In this document: positions 27,001-30,000 of the stretch, in pieces
How the letters are laid out: each line of letters opens with the position of its first letter
Numbering within the stretch: the first letter of the stretch is position 1
Assembly: GCA_963717435.1 (NCBI GenBank)
Contig: OY970332.1
Location: forward strand, 128,001 to 192,000
Reading direction: 5' to 3'
Source of the DNA: an uncultured bacterium
GTDB lineage: Bacteria > Babelota > Babeliae > Babelales > Babelaceae
DNA length: 64,000 bases
Position numbers: made by a program

Positions 27001-30000
27001 TGGAGCAGATATGACAAATTTTAAAAAACATATATTTTCGATAATTTGGGTAATTCTAGGGGTTTTTACGCCCTTAAATGCCTCAAATATCGCTTTAAAC
27101 CAACAAAAATATGAATTTTTGTGTTCTACCCTGCTCTCAAATGAAACTAAGGACCAAGAGGTTTCTGAGGTTGAAGATAAGAACCTACAACAAGGGAACA
27201 TTTGGAGCAGACTTTCTGAGCTTGTCTTAGGAAAAAGACAAAAAACACCTGATTTGAATATAAAGACATTAAATAACTACGAAAAACTGGATTTAACTCT
27301 AAGTAATATTTCACCCTGCCAAGCCGATTTTGGGGTCGTTGAGGAGCATGTGATGAAAGAACTTAGTTTAACTACAGGTGCAGGTTCAAATAAGCAGGAG
27401 CATTTGGTTAATTCTATAAACAGATGTTCGAGCATATTTGGCTATATTACGCTTGCTCAAGAGATTTCAAACCCTACGGACAATATCGAACTCTTGGAAA
27501 AAAAGCAGGAGCTTTGCAAGCAGTTTTTAAACTCTGACAAGGCCAGAGAAAAAATCACTCAAAATCTTAAAGATATTAAAACGGGCGAAGATTCTTTACT
27601 TAGACTTTATGAAAAAAAGAATATGTTTCACCATAAAGTTAAAGAGTATAGTATCGAGAAATATCTTTCTTCTAACCCTGTTCTTAAACCACTTGGAAAA
27701 GAACTTGATTCTAGCCCAACGGCTCTTACCCACTGGAAACGTGCCGCTATTTTGAACAAGCTGTCCGGAACATTAAACTTCCCATTCGTTGGAAGTGTTG
27801 CAGGTGGTGCATTCTTAATAAAGAACGTTCAGTGGTTACTATCTACGGACATTGCGCAGGGCATAAAACAGGTTAAAGCTCTAACTGAGTATGTTAAAGA
27901 CACACAAATGGTCAAGACTTTAACAACTTTTACAGACACAAAATATCTATACAAAAGCTTTATGGAGTCTGAGACAAGCACAAAAGTTAAGTTGGCGCTT
28001 TTAGCAGCAGTGCTGGCGGTGCCCTATGGGATAATATACAGAGTGCAGCTAGATAACATATTTGGCGGAATAGACTTTGATAATCAGTTGGTTAACAAAG
28101 TAAAAACCGAAATCCAAAATATTTCGATATTAATTAAAGCTTTAATTAATATTAATAGTTTCGCGCAGAATTATAAAAACAAAAAATATTTCGAGCATAT
28201 TAAGGGCCTAGAATACTTAAATAATGTATGCACAAAGCCTGAACTGATTTCAGAAAAATTAAAGCAGCTATTAGAAATAATATTATCTGGAAAAGAGATT
28301 ACCGATGGTGAAGCTCTTGCTTCATATTATCTTCTGGATGACGTCAAGAAAGAGATAATGCCTGCTCTAGAGGTTATAGGTCAAATTGATGTTGCAGTTT
28401 CAACAGCTAGTTTAATAAAAGAGTTTGAAAACAAAAGAGTTAAATTTAGCTTTGTTAAATTTGTTAAATCAGATAGGCCATATTTAATAATCAAAAATGG
28501 CTGGACCCCGTTAGTTAATCCAGAATTTGTTGTTGCGACAGATTTTGAAATTAATGGGCCAAGAGACATAAAAAACATGATGTTAACAGGACCCGGTGGT
28601 TGCGGTAAATCTACAAGTATGAAAGAGCTTTGTAATAATATTATTATGGCTCAAACACTTGGTATTGCCCCTGCTGATAGCATGGAACTTGCGCCTTATA
28701 GCAAAATCTGCACGGCTATTGGTGTCGAAGAAGATTTAAGCAGAAATAAATCTAAGTTTATGGCCCAACAAGAGCGCATGAATAATATAGAAAAGACTAT
28801 CGACGAAACAGACAGGCTTGTGTTTATAGCAGTCGACGAGTGCTATAACGGGACAACTGAGATTCTTGGAGCAAAATTATTATATAATTTCGCATTAAAA
28901 GCGGGTCAGTCAGAACACACCACTTCGATAATTTCAACCCACTTTAGGGTTGGCGCCGAAGTGCCGAACTTCTCTAATTTCCAGGTTGAATTACTTGAAC
29001 CTACACCCGGTAAATTTAAAAGAACATTTAGGCTTCTTGATGGAGTTTGTGAGTGGTGGTTGCATGATGCTGAAAAAGCTGCGCGCTTTGCTCGTTGGCT
29101 CCATGGTATGGAGATGGTCTCGGGCATATAAGCTATAACTACTTTAATAAATCATAAAATAGTACACCGTAGAACCGTGTACTATTTTTTTTACAAATCT
29201 TGGAATAAATTAATCTTTTAGATTATATTTAAACTATATTAGTATATTTACAGTATATTTCACAACAATCTTTCTAACTTTTTTAATAAAAATATGGAAA
29301 AAATAATTCTCTTTTATAAATACGTAAAACTAACCTATCCACACCAAGTTATGAAATGGCAAAGACAGCTTTGCTCGCAACTTGGCCTAAAGGGCAGAAT
29401 CGTGCTTGCAACAGAAGGCATTAATGGCACACTGGGCGGATCGGTAGAGGCTTGCGAAATTTATAAGAAAGAGATGGAAGCCAGCGAATTCTTTAAAAAT
29501 ATAGACTTTAAAGAAAGCGAAGGTGGAGCAGACTGCTTTCCAAGACTAGAAATCAAAGTTAAAAAAGAAATTACACATTTGGGTCTGGATACAGAACTTT
29601 ATACAGCAGAAAATGGTGGAATACACTTAACGCCAGAAGAAGCCCATAACTTAATGGCAAATCCTCCAAAAGATTTGATTATTCTTGATGGTAGAAATAA
29701 TTACGAAGCGGCAATTGGCAAATTCGTAAATGCTATAACACCTGATGTTAACCATTTTAGAGAGTTTCCAAATTATATAGATAATAATTTAGAGCAGTTT
29801 AAAGATAAAGAAGTCTTGATGTATTGCACGGGTGGGATACGTTGCGAACGCGCTTCAACTTACCTAAAATCTAAAGGCGTAGCCAAAAACGTTTACCAAA
29901 TTCTTGGTGGAATACACAGATATGCAGAAAAATATCCTGATGGCTTTTTCAGGGGCAAGAACTACGTATTTGATGCACGAGTAACTGTAAGAATTAATGA

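What a model noticed while it worked through the whole genome (the two positions that open the first line are those of the whole stretch)
27011..29131. A phylum-wide family of secreted MutS-like ATPases (domains III+V behind a signal peptide)
Besides a normal MutS, the genome encodes g00190 and g00243 (C1:205498-208824, with a C-terminal ankyrin repeat): MutS core and ATPase domains without mismatch-binding, connector or clamp domains, preceded by a Sec signal peptide. Most Babelota hold 1-8 such genes, so a DNA-repair ATPase scaffold has become an exported, expanded protein family.
Evidence so far: Pfam MutS_III + MutS_V only; found in 36 of 41 genomes; hydrophobic N-terminus of 2.0 or more in 23 of 25 complete homologs with Walker A and DE motifs kept and in 121 of 148 best library hits; model pLDDT 83. 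The Babela ortholog scores 3 of 3 in SignalP in a supplement.
(Added by a program. Inside this text positions count along the whole contig: contig position 128,001 is position 1 of the stretch shown here. "Call 12" and the like, gene names such as g00115 and contig names such as C1 are that model's own, and its searches are not shown. The text may have been shortened before it was handed on; [...] marks where a part breaks off. The agent that wrote the report below was given it as the finding of a first reader that could run no searches.)

Follow-up and report, generated by a model that had tools for sequence, protein, structure and literature searches.

The report
Exported MutS8 ATPase of intracellular bacteria
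This gene makes an exported relative of a DNA-repair motor that is shared by bacteria living inside host cells and by giant viruses; its DNA-gripping clamp is replaced by a greasy hairpin, so it probably acts on membranes rather than repairing DNA.

Summary
The gene encodes a 706-aa MutS core+ATPase with a signal-peptide-like start and intact ATPase motifs. Relatives occur in 176 of 201 Babelota genomes.

It is not a Babelota invention. It belongs to the MutS8 subfamily: its best fold match is a viral protein named MutS8, and three trees group it (support 99) with giant-virus and Cardinium/Amoebophilus proteins. Signal-peptide-bearing MutS8 was already reported in Cardinium (PMC5698495). Signal peptides are also common here (180 of 465 long ORFs).

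New in this work:
(1) The lever/clamp region is a long helical hairpin tipped by two charge-free hydrophobic segments, strongest in viruses (50 of 51 versus 0 of 8 MutS1).
(2) Where lifestyle could be judged, bacterial holders are small-genome intracellular lineages (14 of 251 Cytophagales, all 0.8-1.4 Mb).
(3) Viral copies lack the signal peptide (0 of 51).

Best reading (0.4): a Sec-exported, membrane-anchored ATPase dimer acting at the host interface, not a DNA-repair protein. Destination, dimer and substrate are inferred; the Babela copy has no TMHMM helix.

The parts
27011..29131 (+). MutS8-subfamily gene, 706 aa (P0001)
27002..27005 (+). GGAG ribosome-binding-site-like motif, 5 nt before the ATG; supports this start
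   Evidence: sequence
27011..27082 (+). Sec-type signal-peptide-like start, aa 1-24: KK n-region, hydrophobic h-region (KD11 2.81), L-N-A|S cleavage site judged by eye (the script's first accepted cut was after aa 17)
   Evidence: no SignalP available
27083..27322 (+). all-helical N-terminal extension, aa 25-104; no Pfam match and no strands in the model, so not a connector domain
27323..27715 (+). MutS domain III core, N-terminal part, aa 105-235
   Evidence: model from residue 105 aligns from E. coli MutS residue 264, Z 31.6, rmsd 4.4, 403 aligned
27767..27841 (+). hydrophobic segment A, aa 253-277, on outgoing helix 236-284 (best 18-mer KD 1.35, no charges)
27986..28039 (+). hydrophobic segment B, aa 326-343, at the start of return helix 322-386 (KD 1.97, one charge); A and B tip the hairpin that stands where levers and clamp lie in MutS
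28040..28423 (+). return lever and C-terminal part of domain III, aa 344-471
28448..29050 (+). ABC-type ATPase domain V, aa ~480-680: Walker A TGPGGCGKST 526-535 (variant), S-x-F 581-583, Walker B DE 609-610, His644
29042..29128 (+). divergent Trp-rich C-terminal tail, aa 678-706, in place of the family's usual C-terminal helix-turn-helix (profile end covered in 0 of 3 proteins of this subclade, 144 of 149 library hits)
29156..29192 (+). 12-bp inverted repeat followed by a T run; terminator-like, suggests a stand-alone gene
   Evidence: read from the sequence; no scan run

Best explanation
The protein is a MutS8 ATPase that works outside the bacterial cytoplasm, on a membrane at the parasite-host interface.

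Steps:
(1) Sec export by a cleavable signal peptide. The sequence features are shown; export is inferred.
(2) Passage beyond the periplasm by the type II system or outer-membrane vesicles, into a compartment that holds host ATP. Inferred; two secretin genes are shown in this genome.
(3) The long helical hairpin that replaces levers and clamp dips its two charge-free hydrophobic segments into a bilayer, more likely as a one-sided anchor than as two full spans. Hairpin and hydrophobicity are shown; insertion is inferred.
(4) Two copies pair through the ATPase domains, as MutS proteins do. ATP binding then swings the levers, so the work MutS does on DNA is done on a membrane or a membrane-bound host protein. 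Motifs are shown; dimer and substrate are inferred.
Viral copies need no signal peptide because they are made in the host cytoplasm.
For: Export signal:
- Strict rule met by 52 of 71 Babelota-labelled proteins, 107 of 149 library hits and 9 of 15 Amoebophilaceae-labelled; by 0 of 51 viral, 0 of 8 MutS1 and 21 of 1860 decoys.
- SignalP 3 of 3 for Babela_gene_1085; signal peptides reported on the Cardinium proteins.

ATPase kept: all four motifs in 138 of 149 library hits that were not selected for them.

No DNA-recognition parts: no MutS_I, II or IV. The DSSP strings of both models show no strand of 3 or more residues before the ATPase domain. A full MutS and a MutL motif are present for real repair.

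Hairpin:
- Helices 236-284/322-386 and 213-249/283-341 with pLDDT 81-96.
- Lever-region KD19>=1.6 in 50 of 51 viral, 31 of 71 Babelota and 74 of 149 library proteins, against 0 of 8 MutS1, 0 of 61 MutS2/MutS1-type controls and 114 of 1284 random windows.
- Uncharged run >=19 in 51 of 51, 58 of 71, 122 of 149 and 11 of 15 Amoebophilaceae, against 1 of 8 MutS1 and 284 of 1284 random windows.
- Charged fraction 0.01-0.06 in both segments, against 0.12 and 0.31 in MutS1.
- Low hydrophobic moment in Babelota, about 0.5 versus 1.0-1.7 in MutS1.
- Three invariant prolines 7 residues apart in viral segment A.

Host-bound range:
- 14 of 251 Cytophagales genomes, all 0.8-1.4 Mb; 3 of 200 Chlamydiota.
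- Five unclassified holders are 1.0-1.9 Mb, and 5 of 5 carry ATP/ADP translocases.
- With a viral profile the 17 best bacterial loci are family members, and the other 61 are MutS2/MutS1-type.

Context: one paralogue carries an ankyrin repeat. In viruses the gene sits before a membrane-helix/coiled-coil gene in 21+6 of 51 loci. Two secretins lie in this genome.
Against: - TMHMM found 0 helices in the Babela copy.
- Bacterial segments are only moderately hydrophobic: median best 18-mer 1.43/1.36 in Babelota and 1.18/0.72 in Amoebophilaceae, with KD19>=1.6 in only 1 of 15 of the latter. The buried helix after Walker A is as hydrophobic (about 1.5) even in MutS1, so the segments could instead pack on a partner or a second subunit.
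- Viral segments have a higher moment (about 1.0-1.1).
- Signal peptides are common here: 180 of 465 long ORFs, and 44% of CDS in Chromulinavorax (PMC6561590). A signal peptide alone does not show delivery to the host.
- A. asiaticus homologs are reported to lack a signal peptide.
- This protein lacks the usual C-terminal dimer helices, and its hairpin tip (281-305) is modelled below pLDDT 50.
- No substrate or partner was found. No conserved bacterial neighbour occurs in more than 8 of 146 loci.
- The viral downstream gene can carry a SAP domain (1 protein tested), which binds DNA (established knowledge).
Confidence: 0.4

Rival explanations
1. It stays in the bacterial envelope: exported to the periplasm, anchored by the hairpin, and fuelled by host ATP that crosses the periplasm on its way to the ATP/ADP translocases. 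It remodels the parasite's own envelope or transport proteins.
For: A Sec signal only reaches the periplasm. Holders tested carry TLC translocases. A TLC gene lies within the locus in 3 Babelota and 5 Cardinium-type cases. A hydrophobic hairpin would hinder further secretion.
Against: It does not explain the signal-less viral copies (0 of 51), the ankyrin fusion or the many copies per genome. The 5 Cardinium-type loci are kin with the same gene order, and TLC genes are multi-copy, so the adjacency is weak.
Confidence: 0.22
2. It is a soluble secreted effector that remodels a host protein complex. The hydrophobic hairpin is a protein-binding or dimer-closing surface, as MutS cores are reused in MutS2 (ribosome splitting) and KamC (enzyme reactivation).
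For: Moderate hydrophobicity and TMHMM 0. Weak NCBIfam hits to MutS2 and the reactivase KamC show that III+V cores have non-DNA uses (a MutS2-disome structure is listed). Segment sequences vary widely among paralogues.
Against: Viral segment A reaches median KD 2.23 with no charges and conserved prolines. Hydrophobicity is kept while sequence is not, which is typical of lipid-facing helices (inference).
Confidence: 0.2
3. It is a secreted effector that acts on host (or viral) DNA, as proposed for Cardinium CAHE_0017/0267.
For: MutS fold and ATPase; the published proposal and expression in Cardinium; a SAP domain in one viral neighbour.
Against: Mismatch-binding and clamp domains are absent, and the clamp position is hydrophobic and charge-free rather than basic.
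Confidence: 0.11
4. It is a cytoplasmic repair or anti-recombination accessory whose N-terminus is a mere anchor or a mis-called signal.
For: Databases name the family DNA mismatch repair or MutS-related. The signal prediction here is a home-made rule.
Against: Short basic-hydrophobic-AxA starts recur across two phyla, SignalP calls exist, and a canonical MutS is present.
Confidence: 0.07

Closest known systems
MutS8 subfamily (Ogata et al. 2011, not read; known here through PMC5698495, PMC3749498 and a UniProt name)
   Same: Domains III+V only; one clade with giant-virus and Amoebophilaceae proteins (99); best viral fold match 'MutS subfamily 8' of Tetraselmis virus 1, E 3.5e-19, TM 0.70.
   Different: Bacterial members add a signal peptide and an ~80-aa helical N-terminal extension. 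This protein has a variant P-loop and a Trp-rich tail. MutS8 is described in print as DNA repair; the hydrophobic hairpin argues otherwise.
Cardinium MutS8 effector candidates CAHE_0017 / CAHE_0267 (Mann et al. 2017, PMC5698495)
   Same: MutS8 with predicted signal peptide in an intracellular bacterium. P0001 aligns to a cEper1 MutS-related protein at 23% over 609 aa, E 3e-40, and a typical Babelota member at 29% over 596 aa, E 3e-69. Two copies are found in cBtQ1, as the paper says.
   Different: Different phylum, larger expansion, ankyrin and zinc-ribbon-like add-ons. The passages read propose DNA interaction and do not mention a hairpin. Which of the two locus tags P0163 corresponds to was not established.
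MutS1 / MSH2-MSH3 mismatch-repair ATPases
   Same: Core and ABC ATPase fold (Z 32.7, rmsd 4.1, 406 aligned to MSH3); Walker A/B, S-x-F and His motifs.
   Different: No mismatch-binding, connector or clamp domain; signal peptide; hydrophobic hairpin; far below the equivalog cut-offs (89 vs 480 bits).
MutS2/RqcU and KamC (MutS cores with non-repair jobs)
   Same: They lack domains I and II, and use a MutS ATPase core for other work.
   Different: No long C-terminal Smr-bearing extension (about 190 aa after Walker A versus about 450); scores far below cut-off; separate branch.
Other bacterial III+V MutS-like proteins (MutS3 of Lin et al. 2007, PMC2190696; a Bacteroidota protein with strong membrane segments, L248)
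   Same: Short III+V architecture; L248 also has hydrophobic segments.
   Different: Outside the MutS8 clade; Walker A reads G-x-N-M; no signal peptide in the 6 examined.

Membership tests
MutS8 | MutS domains III and V without I, II, IV | tested here: met
   the feature is taken from the InterPro list in PMC5698495, as the defining paper was not held
MutS8 | Groups in a tree with giant-virus and Amoebophilaceae MutS8, apart from MutS1, MutS2 and other III+V proteins | tested here: met
   SH-aLRT 99 (57 of 71 rows; 35 of 48 rows, mixture model, includes the cEper1 protein); FastTree on 291 columns gave only 0.45
MutS8 | Closer in fold to a named MutS8 than to MutS7 or MutS1 | tested here: met
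   MutS8 TM 0.70, E 3.5e-19, versus MutS7 TM 0.32; best PDB E 4.7e-15; second model TM 0.74
MutS8 | Match to the original MutS8 alignment or profile of Ogata 2011 | not testable with these tools
   paper not held
MutS1 (mismatch repair) | Mismatch-binding domain I, connector II and clamp IV | tested here: not met
MutS1 (mismatch repair) | ABC ATPase motifs | tested here: met
MutS2 | Long C-terminal extension with Smr domain | tested here: not met
   protein ends about 180 aa after Walker A; TIGR01069 57 vs 400 bits
Sec-exported protein | n/h/c signal peptide at the true start | tested here: met
   home-made rule, RBS-like motif, SignalP result for the Babela homolog in a supplement; SignalP itself not run
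Host-delivered effector | Translocation into the host cell | not testable with these tools
   secretins present; no localisation data
Membrane-anchored protein | Bilayer-inserting segments | tested here: inconclusive
   strong in viruses, moderate in bacteria; TMHMM 0 for Babela
MutS-type dimer | Homodimer with composite ATP sites | not testable with these tools

The most novel reading that the evidence does not exclude
MutS8 as a whole is not a DNA-repair protein. It is a membrane-anchored ATP-driven remodelling machine (ABC ATPase head, helical stalk, hydrophobic paddle in place of the DNA clamp). Giant viruses and unrelated intracellular bacteria each deploy it in the eukaryotic cytoplasm: viruses by making it there, Babelota and Cardinium by adding a Sec signal and softening the hairpin, chlamydiae by another route. 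It would be the most widespread shared effector of the Babelota.
Probability: 0.3. Interest if true: 0.85.

Novelty: new member of a known kind. Interest (0 to 1): 0.56.

Why it matters
MutS8 is annotated as DNA mismatch repair in giant viruses and symbionts; no functional test of it turned up in the papers read. If the clamp has become a membrane paddle and the bacterial copies are exported, a DNA-repair scaffold has been turned into a host-interface motor used by both viruses and bacterial parasites of eukaryotic cells.

That would change the annotation of a giant-virus hallmark gene, give Babelota a conserved, enzymatically testable effector candidate (176 of 201 genomes), and redirect the Cardinium candidates away from host DNA.

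The bare fact of a signal peptide on MutS8 is already in print, which caps the novelty.

Tried and rejected
Searches that gave little:
- Single-sequence homolog searches reached few proteins (6, 3); a contig scan with one unclassified member found only itself.
- Atlas searches: only unnamed Nucleocytoviricota clusters for the Cys-rich viral neighbour (0.96); leads under 0.9 for the hairpin region.
- N-terminal extensions and inserts gave no family beyond MutS_III and a sub-threshold DpnI hit.

Claims not made:
- Direction of transfer. Amoebophilaceae and chlamydial rows nest among Babelota rows, but Babelota monophyly is not rejected (p-AU 0.146), so no donor is claimed. The careful bootstrap tree did not finish.
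- A conserved bacterial partner gene was sought and not found.
- The KD11>=2.0 test was rejected as too weak alone.

Literature: ten searches found no paper on a Babelota MutS8 expansion or on a hydrophobic hairpin in MutS8. Most 'muts' hits in the giant-virus papers were an author's name. Ogata 2011 was not held, so it may already note such segments.

Full report
Observation. Window 27011-29131 (+) is one 706-aa ORF between a small divergent gene and a rhodanese/UPF0176 gene. It has an RBS-like motif before it and a terminator-like hairpin after it. Pfam finds MutS_III and MutS_V only. The genome holds three MutS_V matches: a full MutS, this gene and the 1108-aa paralogue with a near-threshold ankyrin repeat. 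A MutL motif is present. A profile of 18 typical members (A2) matches 176 of 201 phylum genomes at E<=1e-60.

Sets used for counts. ORFs from fetched loci that hit A2, had a P-loop and were at least 350 aa, plus five proteins, gave 228 rows, reduced to 179 by shared 5-mers. Dropped before counting were rows with no recognised Walker A, open at the 5' end, or too short: 3 of 74 Babelota-labelled, 3 of 18 Amoebophilaceae-labelled, 1 of 3 chlamydial, 2 of 7 unclassified, 5 of 6 other Bacteroidota and 1 of 2 MutS2. Labels come from genome kinship, record titles or, for vague titles, my inference. The 149 library hits (query excluded) overlap the Babelota set, so the two are not independent, and kin are not independent either. 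Viral loci are the best 80 of 141.

Signal peptide. A stricter n/h/c rule of my own gives 52 of 71, 107 of 149, 9 of 15 Amoebophilaceae and 3 of 5 unclassified. It gives 0 of 51 viral, 0 of 2 chlamydial, 0 of 8 MutS1, 180 of 465 genome ORFs and 21 of 1860 decoys. Among 61 MutS2/MutS1-type controls, 2 pass even the loose test. The Babela supplement lists its copy with SignalP 3, TMHMM 0 and best hit Amoebophilus (PMC4378268, supplement rows); its main text has no occurrence of MutS. The signal is therefore real, but it fits a phylum in which 44% of CDS carry one (PMC6561590, passages).

Identity: MutS8. The AF2 model (pLDDT 80.1) matches a viral protein named MutS subfamily 8 best (E 3.5e-19, TM 0.70), ahead of any solved MutS. 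Scans with family alignments return giant-virus contigs and, after Babelota, Cardinium, Amoebophilus, other Amoebophilaceae and a chlamydia. P0001 aligns over 609 aa with a Cardinium cEper1 MutS-related protein. Three IQ-TREE runs hold these together at 99, with both paralogues of this genome inside and MutS1, MutS2 and other III+V proteins outside. A shorter FastTree run gave 0.45. Mann et al. 2017 (PMC5698495; passages and section 13 read; supplements not seen) already call two Cardinium proteins MutS8, note their signal peptides and propose them as secreted DNA-interacting effectors. They report none on the A. asiaticus homologs. PMC3749498 (passages) presents MutS7/8 as giant-virus genes suggested to keep genomes intact. 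The defining paper was not held.

Range. Outside Babelota the profile matches 14 of 251 Cytophagales genomes, all 0.8-1.4 Mb; the 20 non-matching genomes listed are 1.5-7.3 Mb. It matches 3 of 200 Chlamydiota genomes (two proteins named Parachlamydiaceae). Five unclassified holders are small and all encode ATP/ADP translocases. A viral profile ranks 17 family loci first, followed by 61 MutS2/MutS1-type loci. No free-living holder was found in what was searched; other phyla were not surveyed genome by genome. The direction of transfer is open.

What replaces the clamp. The family aligns with MutS up to the levers and again from E. coli residue 540. Between them both models show two long helices joined by short ones and no strands. 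Two segments at the far end of this hairpin are almost free of charge in Babelota, Amoebophilaceae and viruses (0.01-0.06 versus 0.12 and 0.31 in MutS1). KD19>=1.6 occurs in 50 of 51 viral, 31 of 71 Babelota, 74 of 149 library, 2 of 2 chlamydial and 1 of 15 Amoebophilaceae rows. It occurs in 0 of 8 MutS1, 0 of 61 controls and 114 of 1284 random windows. Segment A is more hydrophobic in signal-less viral proteins (median 2.23) than in Babelota (1.43), as expected if exported copies must pass SecY without stopping (inference). In viruses it has three invariant prolines and is followed by basic residues, which suits a one-sided anchor (inference). Against this, the buried helix after Walker A is equally hydrophobic even in MutS1, and TMHMM saw nothing in Babela.

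ATPase. Walker A, Walker B, His and S-x-F are all kept in 138 of 149 unselected hits. This protein keeps all four, with a variant P-loop and a Trp-rich tail instead of the usual C-terminal helices. Domain III halves flank the hairpin and must pack together (MutS fold), so a cleaved signal puts the whole enzyme outside the cytoplasm. It then needs ATP from the host, either in the periplasm of an ATP-importing parasite or in the host cell. The genome has two secretins, T2SSE-family ATPases and translocases. Type II is reported as the only secretion system of Babela, two gspD copies in TM6 genomes (PMC4776705, one passage), and vesicles in Chromulinavorax.

Neighbours. Across 146 loci no bacterial neighbour recurs widely; a translocase gene lies in 8 loci. 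In viruses the gene is part of a conserved block with a membrane-helix/coiled-coil gene (21+6 of 51 loci) and a Cys-rich unknown gene (30 of 51). Three loci lie near a gene I read as the major capsid protein from a recalled motif.

Verdict. The finding is a real, phylum-wide set of signal-peptide-bearing MutS8 proteins, a known subfamily whose secreted form is in print for Cardinium. The best mechanism (0.4) is an exported, membrane-anchored ATPase dimer that remodels a membrane or membrane protein at the host interface. The rivals are an envelope role (0.22), a soluble protein remodeller (0.2), a host-DNA effector (0.11) and cytoplasmic repair (0.07).

Other papers seen: PMC2190696, PMC6163669, PMC12126595 and PMC13186993 as passages only; the rest as search listings. 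Ten searches found nothing on the Babelota expansion or the hairpin, but the unseen defining paper may bear on both. Interest 0.56.

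Noticed in passing
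window 21932-21995 and 30653-30716: Short repeats lie in frame inside a ComF-like ORF (21797-22576, name recalled) and the murB-like ORF (30168-31418). Each gives 68 BLAST pieces in the genome; they resemble Rickettsia-type palindromic elements inserted in genes (resemblance recalled).
   Followed up: partly
window 26740-26920: GC-rich degenerate repeat cluster upstream of the gene, with 10 BLAST pieces genome-wide, self included.
   Followed up: partly
G000:C1:205498-208824 (L060:1499-4822): The second paralogue has two CxxC pairs (aa 73-76, 95-98; zinc-ribbon-like) and a ~300-aa insert before the MutS core, plus the C-terminal ankyrin repeat.
   Followed up: partly
L162:1407-3491 and L211:80-1576: Signal-peptide-like MutS_III proteins with no P-loop sit in tandem with intact MutS8 genes; possible ATPase-less partners or decoys.
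   Followed up: no
L040, L145, L153, L234, L235, L238, L239, L241: An ATP/ADP translocase (TLC) gene lies next to or near MutS8 in 3 Babelota and 5 Cardinium-type loci.
   Followed up: partly
viral loci such as L081:1987-5572, L111:1942-5507, L141:2113-4753: Conserved giant-virus block: MutS8, a membrane-helix/coiled-coil protein (SAP domain in one tested), a Cys-rich MxDGRxFTDY protein of no known family, and a further conserved gene.
   Followed up: partly
L243:1405-3621, L245:300-3119, L196:2807-5029: Two chlamydial members, and a third from an unclassified genome with strongly scoring ATP/ADP translocases, lack a signal peptide and start with long polar S/N/Q/T/P-rich stretches, as type III substrates often do (resemblance recalled).
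   Followed up: partly
G000:C1:297436-298582: A T2SSE-family ATPase match comes in several pieces with stops; it may be a broken gene.
   Followed up: no
window 19701-20540, 26076-26618, 33765-34640: Other signal-peptide-like ORFs nearby: an ankyrin protein, a 180-aa protein with no Pfam match divergent from the MutS8 gene, and a protein with weak F-box-like and ankyrin hits.
   Followed up: no
L166:5211-6332, L163:3640-4392: Signal-peptide-like RING-finger and ankyrin genes lie beside MutS8 in several Babelota loci.
   Followed up: no
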